64,000 nt of DNA, from positions 1 through 64,000 of the IMG/VR virus record IMGVR_UViG_2814123268_000002. The stretch is one strand, 5' to 3'. The first letter of the stretch is position 1. Every line of letters begins with the position of its first letter. The position numbers were made by a program, and so were the translations under genes. Below, in pieces: positions 10,894 to 19,118 of the stretch. The DNA comes from a virus. Taxonomy: Duplodnaviria; Caudoviricetes. The notes beneath the pieces are model-generated. The model was not told the origin of the DNA and searched no databases. It saw only the letters and a program-made list of their open reading frames with translations.

Positions 10894-13500
10894 ATGTCAG
10901 GGCAATATCCACGCGCCTGGGGCGCACCTCATCCCGCGATCGACCCGGAGACATTCGGCCGCGCCCCACGCACCGCCCTGGGCGATGCGATAGCACTTTA
11001 TGCTAAAGAGGATAAAGACCGCAAAGCACGCGAAGAACAGGAAGCCCGTCAGCAAAGAGCCGAGAAAAAGCAGGCCGCATCCCACCAGGAGGCGCTCGCC
11101 GCGGCGGCCGGCGAACGCTTTCGCCAGCGCGATCTGCTGCTGCCAAAAATACGCATTGCTCATGCCGCCGCCCGCAAAGATCCAGATTCCGGCCCGCTGG
11201 CCGATCTGATGGCCCTGCCGGACTATCTGCGCACCCCGCTGCTGCAACGCTTAAAGCTCCTGCAGAAAAAACAGGAGGCCGCAGAGGCTGCCGGCAAGTC
11301 ATCCAGACCAGCGAGCCGCTACATCCGTAGTAAATTGGCCCTGCTACTGCGCCGCATCGCGCTGACCAATAGCCGGTTTTTAACGCATAAATACCAGCTG
11401 CTCGCCGTGCGTGAACGTCTCGACGAGCTGCTGCACCTGCCGCTCCTGAACAAACGCGGGATCCAGACGCTGGCCACACTGACCGCCAGCGCATTCAGCG
11501 GGGAGTTCGACAGGCAGTACACGCAGCCCGGCATCAAGCAGACGCCCATGCAGGCACTCGCCATCTACCAGCGCCTGGGACATATGGCGCTCTCCCTGCA
11601 CATTACCCCGCCAAACTGGGAGGCATTACGGCCCGACAAAGGCCGCCGCAAAGAAATTGATTTGGAAAAACTACCCGGTGCCCTGTCTCGCCTGATGTGT
11701 GCCGAGTGGTGGACGCACCAATTATGGCGTCTGCGCTGCCGCTGGCGCGAGGAGCAGCTGCGCGCCGCCGGCCAGGTATCACGCCAGACCTCCCCTTACC
11801 TGAGTCGGGATGCGCTGAACGCATTCCGGGAACAGCGCCGCCGCCTGCGGGATTTCCTCAAATCACATGAACTGGTTAACGAGGACGGCTTCACCATCGA
11901 TCTCTATGATGTCTATTACGCCAGCGCCAGCAGTCCCAAACATCGTCGGTTTGAAATGATGACCACCATGAAGGGACTGGAGCTCATCGCCGAGGCGCGT
12001 GGCGATATTCCCACGTTCATCACGGTGACCTGCCCATCACGCTTTCACGCCACTACCGAAGATGGTCACCCCAATGCCCGGTGGGATGGCTCCACCGTAC
12101 GCGATAGCAGCGACTATCTGGTTAACCGTTTTTTTTCCGCCGTACGTAAAAAACTCAAACGTAACAATCTGTATTGGTATGGCATCCGCGTTGCCGAGCC
12201 GCACCACGACGGCACCGTTCACTGGCACATGATGATATTTGCCCACCCAGAAGAGCGCGAGACGATCGAGAAAATTGTGCGCGATATTGCCATTCGGGAC
12301 GAGCGGGAAGAGCTGGGCGATGACATTACCCCACGCTTTAAGAGCGAGATCATCACTGCCGAAAAAGGCTCCCCCACCGGCTACATCGCCACCTATATCG
12401 GCAAAAATATCGATCGCGGTGCCGTAGACGGAGATGACCCCAAAACGGGCAAGCCACGCAAAGACAATGAGAGCGGCAAAGAAATGGCCGAGACGGTCGA
12501 AAATGCCATCGGCTGGGCAGGGTTACACGGTGTGCGCCAGTTTCAGTTTTTCGGCATTCCGTCACGCCAGGTCTGGCGTGAGCTGCGCCGCCTGGCCTGC
12601 CAGATGGCACGCACCCCGGACGGCCCGCAACGCTTACCGGATCCGGCCATGGATAACGTTCTGGCCTGCGCCGATGCCGGCGACTTTGCCGCCTACATCA
12701 TGGCCCAGGGCGGCGTACTGATCCCCCGTAGAGATTACGTGGTACGCACTGCCTACGATATCGCCGATACCGAGAATGACTATGGCGAAACCCCCATTCA
12801 GATTTACGGCATCTACTCACCAATGCTCGGCGACGCGTCCCGCATATGCACCCATCCCGACACCTGGAAGCTGGTCAAAAAGGCCGCGCCCGCTACCTCT
12901 CCCGCGGCGCAGCCGGGGGAGTCTGTTGACGTTCCGGGCGGCTCCGCCGCCCCTTGGACTCGTGGCAATAACTGTCCCCTGCACCAAAATACGGCAACGG
13001 AGCTCCGCACAGAACTGCTGTGGCGTGAGGGCCCCCCCTCTCGCCGGACGCCTGCGGCCACGGCCGACGGCGGTAACGTCGCCGAGCGACGGGCCCGTAT
13101 TCAGCAACGTATTCCGGCGGCACAGCTGGAGATCACCCCGGAGGAGATCGACCTGCTGGCGCGCGGCTGCGTGGTCCGCCTGGAGGATGGCCGTACCTAC
13201 CGCGCCAGCCGCATCACGGGCGAACTGCTGCCGGTGACACACCCGCCACCGCTCAAGCGTATACCGGGACGTATCAGAGAGCAGCGCTGGCGCGCCAACC
13301 GCCGGGATCCCCGCACGCTGGCCCGGCAGTGCATCGAGCAATGGAAAGTCAAGCAGGCAGAACTGCAGGCGTTGTCCACCCGGCAGGCAGAAGCAAGCTC
13401 CGAGACCCCGGATCCTGCCGAGCACACGACCACCGCCGAGCGGGCGGCCTCGCTTATTGAAAGGATGAAAAGGGCAACGCGGGGAAATGGCAACGGTTAG
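10894..13500 (+). CDS. P2 gpA-type rolling-circle replication endonuclease
   Basis: TCPSRFH, EPHHDGTVHWH (HUH), YIATYIGKNI, RQFQFFG, PWTRGNNC. Confidence 0.95.
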   Translation: MSGQYPRAWGAPHPAIDPETFGRAPRTALGDAIALYAKEDKDRKAREEQEARQQRAEKKQAASHQEALAAAAGERFRQRDLLLPKIRIAHAAARKDPDSGPLADLMALPDYLRTPLLQRLKLLQKKQEAAEAAGKSSRPASRYIRSKLALLLRRIALTNSRFLTHKYQLLAVRERLDELLHLPLLNKRGIQTLATLTASAFSGEFDRQYTQPGIKQTPMQALAIYQRLGHMALSLHITPPNWEALRPDKGRRKEIDLEKLPGALSRLMCAEWWTHQLWRLRCRWREEQLRAAGQVSRQTSPYLSRDALNAFREQRRRLRDFLKSHELVNEDGFTIDLYDVYYASASSPKHRRFEMMTTMKGLELIAEARGDIPTFITVTCPSRFHATTEDGHPNARWDGSTVRDSSDYLVNRFFSAVRKKLKRNNLYWYGIRVAEPHHDGTVHWHMMIFAHPEERETIEKIVRDIAIRDEREELGDDITPRFKSEIITAEKGSPTGYIATYIGKNIDRGAVDGDDPKTGKPRKDNESGKEMAETVENAIGWAGLHGVRQFQFFGIPSRQVWRELRRLACQMARTPDGPQRLPDPAMDNVLACADAGDFAAYIMAQGGVLIPRRDYVVRTAYDIADTENDYGETPIQIYGIYSPMLGDASRICTHPDTWKLVKKAAPATSPAAQPGESVDVPGGSAAPWTRGNNCPLHQNTATELRTELLWREGPPSRRTPAATADGGNVAERRARIQQRIPAAQLEITPEEIDLLARGCVVRLEDGRTYRASRITGELLPVTHPPPLKRIPGRIREQRWRANRRDPRTLARQCIEQWKVKQAELQALSTRQAEASSETPDPAEHTTTAERAASLIERMKRATRGNGNG

Positions 13501-13838
13501 TGACTACCGTGATACGGTACGATTCAATATCGAGCTTGTATCGATGACTGCCCCGTTGAGCAAAAAGCACATAGACACGACGCATCCCTTACAATAGCCA
13601 CTAGCTATTGATGATGTAGAGGTTGAAAGATAAGTCTTCTGTTAATAAATGTAAAATCAGCTAAAGCAAAAACTTCCCTATGAAATACATCATTTTGAAT
13701 AAAAAGCTAGTAAAGCCATTCATGCGATAATCACATAAACTAAGCGCCATCAAAACCGACCAATTAATATCCAAACTATTTAACCAGAGGATGCTAACTA
13801 CATAGGCTAGCCAAAACAAACAGCCAGCCTATCAACTA

Positions 13839-14495
13839 CTATTGTCCCTTAACTCTAAAAATAGAGTCAGCCAACCTAGTACCGGTTGATACAAGTTTAG
13901 ATAACACTCGCAATTGTTCTTTACACGCGAAATTCTCAGTTGGGTGAGGGTAATTTATTGTATGATCAATCTCACCCCAAATTTCCTCAAAAAGAGTTCT
14001 CACCTGAATCTCACAACAAATATTTGAATCAGTCTTTGGCTTAATAACATAATGAATGCTTGTATAATAAGACTCTTTGATTTTTGGCGTAAGACCTAAC
14101 GACGTAAAGAAGTCACAACTTTCAGGATCCCATGAATACGCGATAGGACTTTCTCTGTAAAACCAATCACCATCATCTACTTTTTTCTGTATTAATTCAT
14201 GAATATTTTTTAGTTGATCTTGATAAAGATGTAATATGCGAACACCAGCAAGATCAGTTACCCGATAAAATACATTCTCCTCAGAGATCGGGGCGTCACT
14301 GCTATTTTTTCTCTCAATCTTATCTCTTAAATGGTCAACATCCTTCAACCTGCTTTTTATAGTATGAATGACAGGGTGATGATAATCATTTAAACTAGGG
14401 TCTAGTCTAAAAGTATCAACAACACCATTCATAAAATGTTCAAAAAGATGTCGATTTGAAACATACTTATTTAATATAGTGTCTACATTTTCCAT
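13839..14495 (-). CDS. RelA/SpoT-domain small alarmone synthetase-like nucleotidyltransferase
   Basis: SRLKDVDHLRDK, TDLAGVRI, YYTSIHY, CEIQVRTLFEEIWGEIDH (Syn1-4 motifs). Confidence 0.88.
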   Translation of the reverse strand: MENVDTILNKYVSNRHLFEHFMNGVVDTFRLDPSLNDYHHPVIHTIKSRLKDVDHLRDKIERKNSSDAPISEENVFYRVTDLAGVRILHLYQDQLKNIHELIQKKVDDGDWFYRESPIAYSWDPESCDFFTSLGLTPKIKESYYTSIHYVIKPKTDSNICCEIQVRTLFEEIWGEIDHTINYPHPTENFACKEQLRVLSKLVSTGTRLADSIFRVKGQ

Positions 14496-14497
14496 AA

Positions 14498-15607
14498 TTA
14501 ATTACCGAGCATAGATATTCTTGCAATCAAATCTTTGGTAAAAGCTTCATAGCTTTTCTTGGTGGCAATGTATTTTGACTTTGACCCTCTCAAAGTATTT
14601 GCATGCTCGCTTTCTATATTAGGATATTCAGGAACTAACCACATAGGCAGATTATAATACTGTGCCATTGAAGGAAATGTATTATGACTATACATTACTG
14701 CTGTATTACCAATAGGTTCAGCTAGGACTGAATTGTCAATGCTACCTCTTATTGAACTAATAATAAACTGATCAATTGTATTAGGGATACGCTCAGCATA
14801 ATTTAAATGCGCTTGAGCCAGATCCCATTTTCTTTTTCCATTTTCATATTTTCTTGCATTATAGATTGTATAACCTAAAAATCTCACAAAATTTTCAGGG
14901 AATGAATGTCTTTTCTCTGATGATATAAGTTGATAGACTGCATCGAATTCCCTCTTCCAAGAGGAAAGAGATTTTCCAATATTTTTAATTCCATAAAGGC
15001 TAAATAAATCAGGTAGTGCAGGTATAAAAAATCCATCTACTGTAGATATGATTACTTTATTCAAGGATCCTAAGCTAGGAGACGTATCAATTATAATGTA
15101 ATCATAACCATAACGTTCATTATATTCTTCAGCTAATTTTCTTATTCTGGAAATGGTTCTAATTGCAAGAGGCTCTCCTCGATATAAATCATTCCACCTA
15201 CTAGCAATCTTCTCCTCATACAAATGCAGCGTTAGCCTCCCAGGAATAATATCAAGATTATCCCTCAAGTTAACAGGAGGAGGCAAAATCTTATGATCAC
15301 CAGTACCTTCTTGCGTCGGTTGTAATATATAATGAAGGCTTCTTGGTTCATTTGATATGATGTTAAAGTCTTCTGCTGATAATTTCTTTTTTGCCGAGTC
15401 AAAGCCTGAGTCTATAAAATCATTCTCTACCTCCCATAGCCTCTGTATTTTTTCTTGCTTTAAAGAATAAATAGTTAAATTACACTGAGGATCAGCATCA
15501 ATCATTAATACCCTATATCCCATCTCGCACATGCTTTGCGCAATATGAAAAGTGAGCGTTGTTTTACCAACACCACCCTTATTATTAAAGACAGATATTA
15601 TCTTCAT
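14498..15607 (-). CDS. ParA/Soj-family ATPase (long form)
   Basis: Deviant Walker A NNKGGVGKTT, DADPQCNLT, Walker B IIIDTSPSLG. Confidence 0.9.
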   Translation of the reverse strand: MKIISVFNNKGGVGKTTLTFHIAQSMCEMGYRVLMIDADPQCNLTIYSLKQEKIQRLWEVENDFIDSGFDSAKKKLSAEDFNIISNEPRSLHYILQPTQEGTGDHKILPPPVNLRDNLDIIPGRLTLHLYEEKIASRWNDLYRGEPLAIRTISRIRKLAEEYNERYGYDYIIIDTSPSLGSLNKVIISTVDGFFIPALPDLFSLYGIKNIGKSLSSWKREFDAVYQLISSEKRHSFPENFVRFLGYTIYNARKYENGKRKWDLAQAHLNYAERIPNTIDQFIISSIRGSIDNSVLAEPIGNTAVMYSHNTFPSMAQYYNLPMWLVPEYPNIESEHANTLRGSKSKYIATKKSYEAFTKDLIARISMLGN

Positions 15608-15954
15608 ACATCACCTTATTATATCAATGATTATTTTCATTTATAAAACAATATTAACGATCATAATTTATAATGGAAATTATCAAAACATAAACATTGA
15701 AGTTATAAAAGCCAAGTTATAGCGATTAGCTTAGCCTCAAAGACACAGAATAATCAATAATATTATGCGTGCCAACTTGATCGAATTAATTTTGATTTAA
15801 AGTCAAGAACAGACCATGTAAAAATCTAACACAATCAACCGTTTTTACTAGTTAATAAAAAATCAGAAATGACACAAAACACATATGTTCATTATGTGAG
15901 ATGGAGAGACTCCAAGCCTCCACAAGTATAGCCTTCCCTCAGCCGAACAATCAC

Positions 15955-16218
15955 CTACCCCCCCTGCAGCAACTCCAGCGCCATCTGCTTTTCCTCTGGC
16001 CCCAGTCGCTCGATCAGCAGCTTCAGGACACCGCTTTGCAACCCACTCGGCACCAGGGTATGGGAATAGGTCAGGTTCATCACCCAGGTATGGCCACACT
16101 CCAGGCGCGTACAGCGGTAGTAGGCATCGGCAAAATCATAGTTGTCGGTCTTCCAGACCGTCTTTTGGATAATCGCCGGCGCCCCGCAGCAGCGGCATTT
16201 AATTTTTTGTCTGCGCAT
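15955..16218 (-). CDS. ogr: Ogr/Delta zinc-finger late activator
   Basis: CRCCG...YYRCTRLECGHTW...HTLVPS. Confidence 0.88.
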   Translation of the reverse strand: MRRQKIKCRCCGAPAIIQKTVWKTDNYDFADAYYRCTRLECGHTWVMNLTYSHTLVPSGLQSGVLKLLIERLGPEEKQMALELLQGG

Positions 16219-16282
16219 ATCCACCCCTGCACACCGTGGCTGTCATGGCGAAATTTTACCCATTTTTTAACCATGCCGCGAT

Positions 16283-17338
16283 TCACTGTGCTATCTGGGC
16301 ATCATCGTCAAACGTCAGGCTGAATGTCACCCGCCCAAGCCCCCCGATATCGGGAGCGGCATTGACCCCTTCCATAATCAGGCGGCGCAGCGGGATCACC
16401 TCATCCCGGTAGTACGCCTCGCGCGCCTTCAGCGGGTCACCCAGTCCGCCAGCATTGCTGGGGATGATACCGGCGAGGCCGGGCGGAAAGCGGTGGGCCG
16501 TCAGCTGATCCTGCGCGCTGACGTTCTTGATATTCAGAAACTCATCCTTGGTGCCGGAGTCTCCGATGGGGATGACTTTTACCCCTTCCTTATCACCGCC
16601 GGGGATGTTGATAAACATCGACTTAAAGTTGCCGGCCCCCTTGGATGCCTCAATCTTCTTGCGAAACAGCCCCTCAAGCTGCGGATCCATATCCGGGTCG
16701 GTGCTGTAGAGGATATAGCCCAGGTGAGCGCCGTTCTTGTAGTAGCGCCGGCGAAAACGGGTGGCATCGACGTTAAGCATGGCGGACTCCATGCCGTGGA
16801 GGTAGTCGGGAACGCCGTAGACCTGCTGCTGGGGATCGTACTGCGCGACAAAAATCACCTCGCCGCCGCCATAGGTGAGATCGTTGATACCGCCCTGCAC
16901 GATGACCGTCCTGCGATCGGCGGTGCGGCGCAGATAGAGGGAGGGTAAAACGTGCAGCCGGTTGATGCGCCCCAGCCGATTACGCACCTTCAGCAGCCCC
17001 ATATCCCCGAAGATAAGCAGGTTGGTGACCGCGGCCGCCATATCGCTGTGGGTCAGTCCCCCGCCCCCCTGAAACCCGGCCATGACCATATTGACGCGGG
17101 CGCGCAGCACTGCACCGTGGTAAGGGGCGATGTTGGCCAGCACGGCGAGATCCATCCGTTCAATCGGCGGCAGGTAATAACCGTCGTACCCGCTCCACAG
17201 CACGCCGTTATAGCTCCCCCAGGCCGCGACCGGCTCGGGATCGCCAAACTCGATAAAGCTCCCCGGCGAACGGTGCCGCATAGCGCGCTGTCCCAGCTTG
17301 CCGCCGCGCGCCTTAGGCGGCGTTTTTGTTTTCTTCAT
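16283..17338 (-). CDS. Portal protein (gpQ)
   Basis: YDPQQQVYGVPDY, RRRYYKNGAHLG, AHRFPPGLAGIIP. Confidence 0.93.
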   Translation of the reverse strand: MKKTKTPPKARGGKLGQRAMRHRSPGSFIEFGDPEPVAAWGSYNGVLWSGYDGYYLPPIERMDLAVLANIAPYHGAVLRARVNMVMAGFQGGGGLTHSDMAAAVTNLLIFGDMGLLKVRNRLGRINRLHVLPSLYLRRTADRRTVIVQGGINDLTYGGGEVIFVAQYDPQQQVYGVPDYLHGMESAMLNVDATRFRRRYYKNGAHLGYILYSTDPDMDPQLEGLFRKKIEASKGAGNFKSMFINIPGGDKEGVKVIPIGDSGTKDEFLNIKNVSAQDQLTAHRFPPGLAGIIPSNAGGLGDPLKAREAYYRDEVIPLRRLIMEGVNAAPDIGGLGRVTFSLTFDDDAQIAQ

Positions 17339-19118
17339 CACCAAAAATCCAGGTTGACCTGCGTTTGTTCCTATAGCCGATGGGCTCATTGGCCAGGGCG
17401 TGAGCGATGGCAAAGAAGATATCGGCGTGTCCGGTTTCATCGGTACGGTCGGCGGTAAAGGTCACCGCATTGCCGGAGGCGGTCGCGCTCTGCTTTATCG
17501 CCAGGAACGACGCGGGGATATCTCTGGCGTCTTCATCCCACTCGATACGATTGCTGTCGATGACATCCAGCATTTTCAGCACCAGGCGATTTTTTGACTC
17601 GACGCTGTAGTGAATGGCCTTGGCCTCACGCCGTGCAAACCCCTGCACCAGTTCATAGACGCCATAGCCGATGCCGGTCACATCGATGCCGATATGGGTC
17701 ATGTTGTAGCGCGATTTGATCGTCCGAATCTGGTCGGCCATCCACTGGAATGACAGGCCGCGCCAGTGGTGCTTTTCCAGCACCCGGAACCGCTCCACCG
17801 CCAGCAATGGGACGGCGATGACGACAAAGGTCGCATTATCTCCGCTGCGCGCCGGGTCAAACCCGCCCCACACCTCACGATTACCCAGCGGCGCCGCCTC
17901 GTCGGGATGAAAGTCCTGCCAGATATGCGGATCAACGCCACACCGCACCAGTTTGGCGAAGTCGAATACGCTGTCTTTGTCATCCACAAAAACGCACATA
18001 TACAGCCGGTTAAAGGCGTTTTCGCCGTAACGCTCGCGCAGCTCCTCAATATCTGCCCGGTTAAATCCGTCGGCGATGGCATCCTCCATCGTCACCACGT
18101 AGCGCCACTGCTTATCCGGGCATTCACGGCCACCGTCACGCAGTTCGTCGAATGCCGGGAACACCACGCTCTTGCGCTCGGCGTTGCCACGCCGCCATTC
18201 GTCACCGCTCCAAAACGCATAGCCCTGGTGGTTTTTGGCGGAGGGAGTGGAGAAATAGGTCAAGCGCCAATGGCTCTGGGTCGCCATCCCGGAGGCCACC
18301 TCATTAAAGGTGGTAAATTTCGAGATCCACAGATACTCATCGATATACAAATGGCCGGAGTTCGACTGTGCCGTATTGGAGTTGGTGGCCAGAAAATGCA
18401 GCTCGGCCATATTGCTCAGCCTGATCGGATTCCCTTTTAACTGAATGCCGAATTCAACCTGTGCGATTTTCAGGATATAGGTGCGAAAGACTTCGGCCTG
18501 GCGCCGGGAGGCCGACAGGAAGATTTGGTTATCCCCCGTCAGCACCGCATCTTCGAATGCCTCAAAGGCAAAATAGTAGGTGGCGCCAATCTGGCGCGCC
18601 TTGAGCAAATTACGCACGCGGCGAAATTTATTGTCACGCAGATGCAGCTGATACTTGAACAGGTTATCCAGAAACGGCGTGAAGCTCTCGGCGGTCAACT
18701 CAGAAATATCATTCTGTTTACGCCGTCCCTTGCGCCTCCCTTCCCCCTCGGCCGCCTCAGCCTCCCCCGTAGCAGCGACATAGTCAGCCCCGGTAGCACG
18801 CCGCTGTGCAATCTCGGCCATCCGCTCCGCATGCTTATTCTTCTGCGCCATCAACTTAACGTGATGGCCAATAAGCCGATCCAGCTCGTCACATTCCACG
18901 TCGCTCTTATGCTCGCGGGCAGCAAGCAGGGTCAGGCGCTGGGCGATGGCATCCTCGATGCAATCGGTACTGAGCTGTGCATACCATTCATATTTGGTCG
19001 CCCAGTAATACACCACTCGCGGGCTGCTTAGCTTTAATTTGCGCTGTATTTCCTTTGGCGTGTGCCGCTTTAAGTAGAGCGCCTTAGCCGCAGCGATCAC
19101 TTCTTCAGAATAGGCCAT
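17313..19118 (-). CDS. Terminase ATPase subunit (gpP)
   Basis: LKARQIGATYYFA, YIDEY, GFDPARSGD, IDVTGIG, HADIFFA. Confidence 0.95.
   Translation of the reverse strand: MAYSEEVIAAAKALYLKRHTPKEIQRKLKLSSPRVVYYWATKYEWYAQLSTDCIEDAIAQRLTLLAAREHKSDVECDELDRLIGHHVKLMAQKNKHAERMAEIAQRRATGADYVAATGEAEAAEGEGRRKGRRKQNDISELTAESFTPFLDNLFKYQLHLRDNKFRRVRNLLKARQIGATYYFAFEAFEDAVLTGDNQIFLSASRRQAEVFRTYILKIAQVEFGIQLKGNPIRLSNMAELHFLATNSNTAQSNSGHLYIDEYLWISKFTTFNEVASGMATQSHWRLTYFSTPSAKNHQGYAFWSGDEWRRGNAERKSVVFPAFDELRDGGRECPDKQWRYVVTMEDAIADGFNRADIEELRERYGENAFNRLYMCVFVDDKDSVFDFAKLVRCGVDPHIWQDFHPDEAAPLGNREVWGGFDPARSGDNATFVVIAVPLLAVERFRVLEKHHWRGLSFQWMADQIRTIKSRYNMTHIGIDVTGIGYGVYELVQGFARREAKAIHYSVESKNRLVLKMLDVIDSNRIEWDEDARDIPASFLAIKQSATASGNAVTFTADRTDETGHADIFFAIAHALANEPIGYRNKRRSTWIFGDEENKNAA

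What the first reader, a model, noticed from the sequence alone, without database searches (positions are those of the whole stretch)
13839..15607. ParA ATPase plus RelA/SpoT-like enzyme in the P2 defence hotspot: candidate new anti-phage system
Seen: two tightly linked (2-nt gap), strongly AT-rich genes antisense to repA, between repA and ogr/portal, with their own AT-rich upstream region. The first is a 369-aa ParA/Soj ATPase with large insertions and no parB or parS. The second is a 218-aa stand-alone synthetase-fold protein with Syn1-4 motifs (His at the usual Syn1 Ser) and no hydrolase. Known: this locus in P2-like phages is a hotspot of defence systems; toxic small alarmone synthetases (toxSAS, CapRel) make (p)ppGpp/(p)ppApp or pyrophosphorylate tRNA and mediate abortive infection; an integrated prophage needs no partition ATPase. 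Inference: ParA acts as sensor/antitoxin controlling an RSH toxin. I do not recognise this pair as a named system.
Basis: partly seen in the sequence, partly recalled or inferred. Interest (0 to 1): 0.87.

Follow-up and report, generated by a model that had tools for sequence, protein, structure and literature searches.

The report
ParA-like ATPase plus alarmone-synthetase defence candidate
A P2-like prophage carries, in its known anti-phage cargo slot, a tightly linked pair of genes (a ParA-like ATPase and a small RelA/SpoT-type synthetase) that always travel together across many bacterial phyla; relatives of the ATPase pair instead with a classic NAD-destroying defence enzyme, so the pair is most likely an untested phage-defence module.

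Summary
Two co-directional, AT-rich genes 2 nt apart lie between the P2-type replication gene and ogr/portal: a 369-aa ParA-like ATPase and a 218-aa synthetase-only RelA/SpoT homologue (RSH). The provirus record has no ParB and no HD hydrolase.

The pair is an obligate module. In 74 of 75 loci found through the RSH gene, the ATPase gene lies directly upstream; the last locus has no upstream DNA. All 27 testable close relatives of the ATPase (45% identity or more) are followed by the RSH gene. The module spans several phyla and sits in the same repA-portal slot of about ten divergent P2-like elements, including 7 of 5,426 complete E. coli genomes.

New here: more distant members of the same long ParA-like family (hhalign E 7.6e-56, full length) are followed by a SIR2-like effector in 18 of 46 viral and 59 of 80 metagenome loci, sometimes in the same P2 slot. 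Nine others are preceded by a Schlafen/AlbA_2 protein, once inside a BREX locus.

I read it as an ATPase sensor/switch with an exchangeable effector. Function and mechanism are untested. PADLOC v2 has no model and my searches found no paper. This scan has met the pair before on other DNA; earlier notes cite an untested catalogue entry that I could not check.

The parts
15608..15954 (-). AT-rich upstream leader of the operon, with a promoter-like site (15647..15618) and an AAGGTGATG ribosome-binding site before the ATG at 15607. It holds no conserved third gene.
   Evidence: One search finds no upstream small ORF conserved across related loci.
14498..15607 (-). Long ParA-like (SIMIBI-class) ATPase, 369 aa. 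It has a deviant Walker A (FNNKGGVGKT; K10, K15), D37/D39 and Walker B D174. It also has an insertion at about 62-85 and a family-specific C-terminal extension at about 220-369.
   Evidence: Pfam AAA_31, E 4.7e-31. Invariant residues in 68 sequences. AF2 pLDDT 91.5. Best fold match is 3pg5 (DIP2308, uncharacterised), E 7.4e-16, then ParA/Soj. hhalign to the SIR2-linked ATPases gives E 7.6e-56 over residues 1-367.
13839..14495 (-). Stand-alone synthetase-only RelA/SpoT homologue, 218 aa, acidic (pI 6.0). The catalytic set is conserved: R49, K51, K59, D81-x-x-G84-x-R86, Y144, H148, E162, Q164, R166, H178, Y182. There is a strongly conserved C-terminal helical tail at 189-214.
   Evidence: Pfam RelA_SpoT, E 7.4e-18. 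Invariant columns in 70 sequences. AF2 pLDDT 86.5. Foldseek best matches are RelP/RelQ (E 4e-9, TM 0.56-0.67), with CapRel at 2e-6. pI values come.
13501..13838 (.). AT-rich spacer between the RSH stop and the repA stop. Its 52-codon ORF (13661..13819, -) is found only in this element's own copy.
   Evidence: In one search, tblastn of the 52-aa ORF hits only L001.
10894..13500 (+). Left border of the cargo slot: the P2 gpA-type replication endonuclease gene.
   Evidence: Homologues flank the pair or its SIR2 sister in L060, L063, L096, L097, L100, L134 and L148. The E. coli annotation reads 'replication endonuclease'.
15955..17440 (-). Right border of the cargo slot: ogr-type zinc-finger activator (15955..16224) and portal gene (16283..17440).
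   Evidence: The 'ogr' label is my reading of the translated sequence from recall; no family search was run on it. Portal homologues lie next to the pair in other P2-like contigs and in E. coli.

Best explanation
The two genes form a self-contained, horizontally mobile anti-phage (abortive-infection type) module carried as cargo in the P2 hotspot. The long ParA-like ATPase is the sensor/switch and the small RSH enzyme is the effector.

Proposed working:
1. In the uninfected lysogen, the ATPase cycles between ATP-bound dimer and monomer, possibly on DNA as ParA proteins do, and the RSH enzyme is kept idle.
2. An infection cue changes the state of the ATPase, and it then licenses the RSH enzyme.
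3. The RSH enzyme transfers pyrophosphate from ATP to a purine-nucleotide acceptor, making a (p)ppGpp- or (p)ppApp-type alarmone. I think tRNA is the less likely acceptor.
4. Growth stops before the invading phage completes its cycle.

Shown here:
- Gene structure and intact catalytic residues in both proteins.
- Strict two-way linkage of the genes.
- Mobility across phyla.
- Repeated hotspot location.
- Homologous ATPases paired with SIR2 or Schlafen-like partners.

Inferred:
- Anti-phage function.
- Which protein senses.
- Activation versus neutralisation of the RSH enzyme.
- The acceptor substrate.
- The infection cue.
For: 1. Obligate pair. The ATPase gene lies directly upstream on the same strand in 74 of 75 loci found through the RSH gene. 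L072 has no upstream DNA, L064 is cut by the contig end, and L039 and L044 are frameshifted. Conversely, 27 of 32 viral loci with an ATPase at 45% identity or more have the RSH gene directly downstream, and the other 5 end at the ATPase gene.

2. Mobility. Hosts include Gamma- and Betaproteobacteria, Bacteroidota, Firmicutes, a cyanobacterial MAG, a Nitrospinales MAG and a Methanobacterium MAG, all at 52% identity or more apart from the truncated L058 copy (44%). GC is 0.33 against 0.60 in the flanks. Neighbours are variable: 118 Pfam families among 120 upstream ORFs and 104 among 109 downstream ORFs. No third gene is conserved.

3. Hotspot. The pair lies between repA and portal/terminase in the window and in L060, L061, L063, L070, L096, L097, L100 and L101, with P2-type capsid and scaffold genes nearby in L103. 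Core-gene identity to the window is only 25-46%, and the pair occurs in either orientation. It is present in 7 of 5,426 complete E. coli genomes. In the two inspected, the order is replication endonuclease, hypothetical, DinI, ParA, RelA/SpoT, portal.

4. Effector exchange.
- ATPases homologous over their whole length (hhalign probability 100, E 7.6e-56) are followed by a SIR2_2 protein of about 285 aa. This holds in 18 of 46 viral loci and 59 of 80 metagenome loci, usually with a 4-nt overlap.
- These SIR2 proteins match ThsA, LmuA and Dsr1/2 models and keep the GAGxS, TPNFD and HG motifs.
- They sit in the same repA-portal slot in L134 and L148/L149, and beside a portal gene in L127.
- Nine further ATPases are preceded by an AlbA_2 + HATPase_c_4 protein, once between a PglX-like methylase and PglZ/BrxL.
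- Partner type follows the ATPase tree: the RSH-linked clade holds 79 rows, needs one change and has SH-aLRT 100.

5. Defence neighbours among the nearest ORFs include mad3 x3, AriA x3, type I and IIG restriction-modification, AbiLi, PtuA, HEC-01A, PD-Lambda-1, GajB and DRT.

6. Both enzymes look active.

7. Substrate. The RSH family is acidic (median pI 6.2, n=70). CapRel^SJ46 has pI 9.5 and net charge +18.

8. Precedent. In PANGU type I, a DNA-bound partner activates an otherwise inert toxSAS (bioRxiv 10.64898/2026.04.06.716658; outline, passages and section 11 read).
Against: - No experiment exists, and I have no expression data.
- There is no PADLOC v2 model. The only hits are at the P-loop (24.8 bits) and a weak PDC-S33 match (23.9 bits).
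- By sequence and fold the RSH protein is closest to the non-toxic housekeeping RelP/RelQ.
- Many related loci are flanked by ordinary metabolic genes.
- I did not compute a statistical enrichment near defence genes. The PADLOC tallies overlap, so I cannot give the number of distinct defence neighbours.
- A physical ATPase-RSH contact is not shown.
- Hotspot cargo and effector exchange would also fit an addiction module.
- A few family members are basic (pI up to 9.3), so the charge argument does not hold for all.
Confidence: 0.6

Rival explanations
1. It is a toxin-antitoxin or addiction module whose main role is to stabilise the mobile element. The RSH enzyme is a constitutively toxic toxSAS and the ParA-like ATPase is its protein antitoxin. 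Any anti-phage effect would be secondary.
For: The gene order (partner first, RSH second) and tight coupling resemble toxSAS TA operons (PMC7229694, passages read; PMC11782079, abstract seen). The module is mobile, lies on prophages and moves between phyla. It carries no hydrolase gene.
Against: A 369-aa ATPase with fully conserved catalytic residues is unlike known toxSAS antitoxins. Its homologues partner SIR2 and Schlafen-like proteins, which is the pattern of sensor-effector defence systems. Decayed copies show no asymmetry: the ATPase is frameshifted in 2 loci and the RSH gene disrupted in 3, all in draft assemblies. Two loci with a frameshifted ATPase keep an intact RSH gene (L039, L044), which would be lethal for a strict TA pair unless these are assembly errors.
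Confidence: 0.15
2. It is a lysogenic-conversion or physiology module. The prophage uses a locally regulated alarmone synthetase to tune host growth, stress tolerance or its own lysis-lysogeny decision, with no role against other phages.
For: The RSH protein is nearest RelP/RelQ, which are regulatory, non-toxic synthetases. It is acidic and keeps all synthetase motifs. Many non-phage loci lie among housekeeping genes.
Against: The distribution is sporadic: 7 of 5,426 E. coli genomes. The module spreads between phyla, is exchanged with SIR2 modules in the same slot and has defence-gene neighbours. These are not expected for a physiological regulator.
Confidence: 0.12
3. It is a remnant or variant of a DNA partition system (ParA with a non-canonical partner) serving an episomal stage of the element.
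For: The fold and Walker A motif are of ParA/Soj type. PHROG 164, 'ParA-like partition protein', matches at E 2.9e-39.
Against: The record has no ParB_N. NCBIfam partition models score far below their cut-offs (72 against 180 bits). The same pair sits in chromosomes and integrated prophages of many phyla. The partner is always an enzyme, RSH or SIR2.
Confidence: 0.02

Closest known systems
PANGU type I (Pag1A YejK-like nucleoid protein + Pag1B GRel toxSAS), bioRxiv 10.64898/2026.04.06.716658. I read the outline, passages and section 11.
   Same: It is a two-gene anti-phage operon in which a DNA-associated partner controls a small alarmone synthetase. Neither gene is toxic alone, the partner activates the enzyme, and the family exchanges effectors in a modular way.
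   Different: The partner here is a ParA-like P-loop ATPase, not a YejK-like protein. The RSH protein is 218 aa and lacks the C-terminal DNA-mimic domain of Pag1B. None of the ten listed PANGU-like clusters has a ParA partner. DNA binding by this ATPase was not tested.
toxSAS toxin-antitoxin modules and fused CapRel (PMC7229694, PMC11782079, PMC9712102). I saw search-listing abstracts for all three and passages of PMC7229694 only.
   Same: A synthetase-only RSH enzyme sits on mobile elements and prophages next to a cognate control element. CapRel is a proven anti-phage effector.
   Different: No solved toxSAS is found by sequence at E up to 1. CapRel ranks below RelP/RelQ by fold. The protein is acidic, whereas CapRel^SJ46 has pI 9.5. 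The partner is a large ATPase rather than a small antitoxin or a fused domain.
ATPase + effector abortive-infection pairs such as PARIS (AriA/AriB; PMC9122126), Septu and Lamassu. Apart from PARIS, their architectures are recalled from memory.
   Same: An NTPase sensor/scaffold gene is followed by an effector gene, carried in P2/P4 hotspots, and the effector domain varies between relatives.
   Different: The NTPase here belongs to the ParA/MinD (SIMIBI) class, not the ABC/SMC/AAA15 class. No PADLOC model of those systems matches beyond the P-loop.
Chromosome and plasmid partition ATPases ParA/Soj, and the uncharacterised DIP2308 (PDB 3pg5)
   Same: The fold, the deviant Walker A with its signature lysine, and the Walker A' and B aspartates are shared. 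3pg5 has a similar overall length (361 aa) and is the best structural match.
   Different: There is no ParB. The protein has extra insertions and a C-terminal extension. It is always paired with an enzyme.
Catalogue entry '#110 ParA/AAA_31 | RelA_SpoT' in Table S5 of Rousset et al. 2022 (PMC9122126), as reported by earlier notes of this scan. I did not see it.
   Same: It would be the same arrangement in the same E. coli P2 hotspot that I found independently.
   Different: It is said to be only listed and not tested. The main text never mentions RelA/SpoT, ParA or alarmones. Supplements were closed, so I could not verify the entry.
Long ParA-like ATPase + SIR2 pair.
   Same: The ATPase is homologous over its whole length. 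The operon layout is the same, and the pair occupies the same P2 slot in some contigs.
   Different: The effector is a SIR2-type presumed NADase instead of an RSH enzyme. The ATPase is 27-36% identical to the window's and lacks the 62-85 insertion.

Membership tests
ParA/Soj partition ATPases | Deviant Walker A (KGGxGK[ST]) with signature lysine, plus a ParA/MinD fold | tested here: met
   FNNKGGVGKT, with K10 and K15 invariant in 68 sequences. Foldseek hits ParA/Soj at E 1e-10 to 1e-11.
ParA/Soj partition ATPases | A cognate ParB-type centromere-binding partner encoded alongside | tested here: not met
   The 76,972-bp record has no ParB_N. The downstream gene is the RSH gene in every testable locus. 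NCBIfam ParA_partition scores 72 bits against a cut-off of 180.
toxSAS toxin-antitoxin / CapRel | A synthetase-only RSH fold with intact catalytic motifs | tested here: met
   Pfam RelA_SpoT only. Conserved R49, K51, K59, D81, G84, R86, Y144, H148, E162, Q164, R166, H178 and Y182. RelP/RelQ/CapRel fold.
toxSAS toxin-antitoxin / CapRel | Membership of a validated toxSAS subfamily (FaRel, FaRel2, PhRel, PhRel2, CapRel, Tas1) | tested here: inconclusive
   No solved toxSAS is found by sequence at E up to 1. A family profile scores CapRel^SJ46 at only 13.9 bits. The subfamily HMMs of Jimmy et al. were not available.
toxSAS toxin-antitoxin / CapRel | Toxicity of the RSH enzyme that is neutralised by the cognate partner | not testable with these tools
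   This needs expression of each gene alone and of both together.
PANGU type I | A YejK-like nucleoid-associated partner, and a GRel synthetase with a C-terminal DNA-mimic domain | tested here: not met
   The partner is AAA_31/CbiA. The RSH protein ends at residue 218 with no extra domain. The PANGU definition was read.
Systems modelled in PADLOC-DB v2.0.0 | A full-length match of both proteins to the models of one system | tested here: not met
   The best hits are PDC-M28B (24.8 bits, residues 4-39 only) and PDC-S33 (23.9 bits).
P2-like prophage hotspot cargo (Rousset et al. 2022) | A variable locus between the replication gene A and the portal gene Q of a P2-like element | tested here: met
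   Window, other P2-like contigs and annotated E. coli prophages. Main-text passages of the paper on this hotspot were read; the A-to-Q borders as its definition are recalled.
Housekeeping small alarmone synthetases RelP/RelQ | Equivalog-level sequence match and conserved acceptor-site residues | tested here: not met
   NCBIfam GTPPhKinYjbM scores 51.6 bits against a cut-off of 320. In the RelP alignment, the Syn1 Ser is His55, the Arg of GYRSLH is Thr145 and the Lys of YK is Pro183. All three are invariant or nearly so in the family. The roles of these RelP residues are recalled, not tested.

The most novel reading that the evidence does not exclude
The long ParA-like ATPases are a previously unrecognised class of infection sensors. 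Like partition ParA proteins, they would sit on the nucleoid as ATP-bound dimers and respond when a phage degrades, displaces or floods the cell's DNA. They would then license whichever effector is encoded beside them: an alarmone synthetase here, a SIR2 NADase or a Schlafen-like protein in sister modules. This would be a second, independent invention of the nucleoid-integrity sensing recently proposed for PANGU. It would also make a chromosome-segregation machine the ancestor of an immune sensor.
Probability: 0.2. Interest if true: 0.85.

Novelty: new variant of a known kind. Interest (0 to 1): 0.62.

Why it matters
If the pair defends against phages, it adds a ParA/MinD-class ATPase to the known kinds of immune sensor. 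It also adds a RelP/RelQ-like, acidic alarmone synthetase to the known effectors.

The ATPase family pairs with three unrelated partner proteins (RSH, SIR2, Schlafen-like). That gives a natural experiment for separating sensing from killing: the same sensor scaffold can be studied with different outputs.

A version of the module already sits in E. coli P2 prophages, so the standard tests are directly feasible: plaque assays, catalytic mutants, nucleotide LC-MS and escape mutants. The work would also test whether sensing the state of the nucleoid, as proposed for PANGU, is a general strategy.

Tried and rejected
Tools unavailable or unhelpful:
I used the search for related loci instead.
- Expression: no RNA holder was listed.
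- ESM Atlas: returned only generic RelA/SpoT clusters.

Analyses that gave nothing:
- Fusion evidence. Among 33 longer relatives of the RSH protein, none carries a ParA domain. About 20 of them (47-66% identity) add C-terminal extensions of roughly 170-310 aa with no Pfam family, one carries TPR repeats and one a methyltransferase domain.
- A docking motif shared by the RSH and SIR2 partners: none seen.
- A conserved third gene. None was found among 106 loci. The largest cluster of upstream ORFs has 8 loci, which are 4 contigs fetched twice. The three-gene variant mentioned in earlier notes is therefore not a feature of this clade.
- Asymmetric decay of one partner: none.
- The C-terminal extension searched alone. 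It found only 70 representatives, many of them fragments. Wherever the protein is full length the extension is C-terminal, and no other architecture appeared.

Literature: I found no paper on ParA with RSH, or on ParA with SIR2. The main text of Rousset et al. 2022 has no mention. Subscription journals and supplements were not searchable.

Partition reading: rejected.

Correction: I first counted 19 SIR2-linked viral loci. A recount gives 18 of 46.
Full report
**What is there.** The window holds two co-directional ORFs on the minus strand. One is a 369-aa protein at 14498..15607 and the other a 218-aa protein at 13839..14495, and they are 2 nt apart. They lie in an island of 0.30-0.37 GC inside a 0.56-0.69 GC P2-like provirus. 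The borders are the gpA-type replication gene (10894..13500, +) on one side and, on the other, an ORF that I read from its sequence as an ogr-type zinc-finger activator, then the portal and terminase genes (all minus strand).

Pfam gives AAA_31/CbiA for the first protein (E 4.7e-31). For the second it gives RelA_SpoT alone (E 7.4e-18), with no hydrolase domain. NCBIfam partition and RelQ equivalogs score far below their cut-offs. PHROGs gives 'ParA-like partition protein' for the first and families of unknown function for the second. The 76,972-bp provirus record contains no ParB_N and no HD_4 domain. A 345-nt AT-rich leader with one good promoter-like site and a ribosome-binding site precedes the ATPase gene, and it holds no third gene. 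An identical copy of the region is locus L001, whose record title names Edwardsiella ictaluri.

**The pair is an obligate, mobile module.** The large protein collection holds 3,226 relatives of the RSH protein and more than 7,000 of the ATPase. Many hits of the two searches share the same longest-contig lengths.

A profile of the RSH protein retrieved 59 loci from species-representative genomes and 16 from IMG/VR. In 74 of these 75 loci, tblastn finds the ATPase gene immediately upstream on the same strand. L072 has no upstream DNA, L064 is cut by the contig end, and L039 and L044 are frameshifted.

Searching the other way, with the ATPase profile, gave 32 viral loci at 45% identity or more. 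Of these, 27 have the RSH gene directly downstream and the other 5 end at the ATPase gene. About 30 distinct viral contigs carry the confirmed pair.

Hosts include Gamma- and Betaproteobacteria, Bacteroidota, Firmicutes, a cyanobacterial MAG, a Nitrospinales MAG and a Methanobacterium MAG, at 52% identity or more apart from the truncated L058 copy (44%).

The two nearest ORFs on each side are almost never the same: 118 Pfam families among 120 upstream proteins, and 104 among 109 downstream. No small upstream gene is conserved. Neighbours include mad3, AriA, type I and IIG restriction-modification, AbiLi, PtuA, HEC-01A, PD-Lambda-1, GajB and DRT proteins, mixed with transposases, phage genes and ordinary metabolic genes. 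I did not compute an enrichment statistic.

**Hotspot location.** Besides the window, the pair lies between repA and portal/terminase homologues in L060, L061, L063, L070, L096, L097, L100 and L101, and near P2-type capsid genes in L103. These elements share only 25-46% identity with the window's core proteins, and they hold the pair in either orientation.

A sensitive DNA search finds the pair in 7 of 5,426 complete E. coli genomes. In the two I inspected, the order is replication endonuclease, hypothetical, DinI, ParA family protein, RelA/SpoT domain protein, portal. This is the P2 hotspot of Rousset et al. 2022. Their main text does not mention the pair. Earlier notes of this scan say it is entry #110 of their Table S5, untested. 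I could not open supplements.

**The proteins.** Across 68 ATPase sequences, several groups of residues are invariant: the deviant Walker A (K10, K15), D37/D39 and Walker B D174, together with much of the C-terminal 150 residues. The AlphaFold model is confident (pLDDT 91.5). Its best structural match is the uncharacterised DIP2308 (3pg5, E 7.4e-16), followed by ParA/Soj. The C-terminal extension searched alone finds only 70 cluster representatives, and it is C-terminal in every full-length protein.

Across 70 RSH sequences, the catalytic set R49, K51, K59, D81/G84/R86, Y144, H148, E162, Q164, R166, H178 and Y182 is conserved. So is a C-terminal helical tail (189-214), which is modelled with lower confidence.

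By sequence and by fold, the nearest solved structures are RelP and RelQ (E about 1e-9; TM 0.56-0.67). CapRel ranks lower, and no toxSAS is reached by sequence.

Relative to RelP, the family has three changes: His for the Syn1 Ser, Thr for the Arg of GYRSLH and Pro for the Lys of YK. What these changes mean for the acceptor is unknown.

The family is acidic (median pI 6.2, range 5.2-9.3). The tRNA-modifying CapRel^SJ46 has pI 9.5 and net charge +18. I take this as weak evidence for a nucleotide acceptor rather than tRNA.

The ATPase search also returned 46 viral loci with relatives at 25-36% identity.
- In 18 of them the next gene, usually overlapping by 4 nt, encodes a protein of about 285 aa. 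All five that I scanned are SIR2_2 (E 1e-19 to 1e-24). They match the SIR2 models of ThsA, LmuA and Dsr1/Dsr2 and keep the NAD-binding and catalytic motifs.
- A profile-profile comparison shows that the RSH-linked and SIR2-linked ATPases are homologous over their whole length, including the extension (probability 100, E 7.6e-56, 324 columns).
- A metagenome scan with the SIR2-linked profile gave 80 loci. In 59 of them SIR2 lies directly downstream, 7 have no downstream DNA, 14 have other genes and none has the RSH gene.
- The SIR2 module occupies the same repA-portal slot in L134 and L148/L149, and it lies beside a portal gene in L127.
- Nine further ATPases (L123, L144, L221, L231-L235, L237) are immediately preceded by a Schlafen AlbA_2 + HATPase_c_4 protein. 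In L123 this pair sits between a PglX-like methylase and PglZ/BrxL.
- On a maximum-likelihood tree of 109 ATPases, the 79 RSH-linked rows form one side of a branch with SH-aLRT 100, and partner labels need 4 changes against a minimum of 3. I used the quick method without a mixture model, the root is unknown, and several long branches were flagged.
- The ATPases of all three kinds hit PADLOC only at the P-loop.

**Interpretation.** A conserved NTPase with interchangeable enzymatic partners, carried in prophage cargo slots and defence loci, is the signature of sensor-effector immune systems. I therefore read the ATPase as the sensor/switch and the RSH enzyme as the effector (confidence 0.6 for a defence function).

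Within that reading, I slightly favour licensing of an otherwise idle enzyme over neutralisation of a constitutive toxin, for three reasons:
- SIR2 effectors in known systems are switched on by infection (recalled, not tested here).
- PANGU offers a direct precedent for an activated toxSAS.
- Two draft loci keep an intact RSH gene beside a frameshifted ATPase gene.

None of these points is strong. The boldest reading is that ParA-type ATP-dependent nucleoid binding is itself the sensing principle. Nothing I saw excludes it, but it rests only on family knowledge and analogy (probability 0.2).

The rivals are an addiction module (0.15), a physiological or lysogenic-conversion regulator (0.12) and a partition remnant (0.02).

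**Novelty and limits.** My nine valid literature searches and PADLOC v2 give no named or tested system for ParA with RSH, or for ParA with SIR2. An untested catalogue listing probably exists.

This scan has reported the same pair on other DNA several times. Those notes agree with my independent results on conservation and hotspot location. Their three-gene variant is not present in this clade. A word search of the notes for a ParA-SIR2 sister module found none.

Noticed in passing
L131:6001-7873 and 17 other viral loci (L127, L133-L136, L138, L139, L141-L143, L145-L150, L152); 59 metagenome loci among L158-L237: A sister two-gene module: a long ParA-like ATPase (about 330-345 aa) followed, usually with a 4-nt overlap, by a SIR2_2 protein of about 285 aa that matches the ThsA, LmuA and Dsr SIR2 models. 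PADLOC v2 does not model it, and I found no paper on it.
   Followed up: yes
L123:1559-11351; also L144, L221, L231-L235, L237: A Schlafen AlbA_2 + HATPase_c_4 protein (about 400-443 aa) sits directly upstream of a long ParA-like ATPase. In L123 the pair is embedded between a PglX-like methylase and PglZ/BrxL of a BREX locus.
   Followed up: partly
P0241-P0260 (proteins of 388-528 aa); P0261 (813 aa); P0250 (474 aa): Relatives of this RSH protein at 47-66% identity carry C-terminal extensions of roughly 170-310 aa with no Pfam family. A 39% relative is fused to TPR repeats and another relative to a methyltransferase domain. These may be single-gene versions with a fused sensor. Their genomic context could not be checked.
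   Followed up: partly
L110:5992-8008 and about 11 near-identical viral loci (L112-L121): A third kind of long ParA-like ATPase (332 aa) recurs in a group of near-identical viral contigs. It is followed by conserved 95-aa and 144-aa ORFs with no PADLOC hit, and their function is unknown.
   Followed up: partly
L063:7703-11716 (same contig as L078): In this P2-like contig, about 4 kb of further cargo lies between the RSH gene and repA. It may be a second system stacked in the same hotspot.
   Followed up: no
L155:3338-5014 (E. coli prophage carrying the pair): A 'SNIPE associated domain-containing protein' lies between the integrase and CI repressor genes of one E. coli P2-like prophage and is absent from the otherwise similar prophage in L154. 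This looks like a second variable cargo site.
   Followed up: no
window 13661-13819 (-): A 52-codon hydrophobic ORF lies in the AT-rich spacer downstream of the RSH gene. It was found only in the element's own copy (L001), so it is probably not a gene of the module.
   Followed up: partly
window 17313-17440: The listed portal and terminase ORFs overlap by 128 nt. The portal start is probably downstream of the first in-frame ATG.
   Followed up: no
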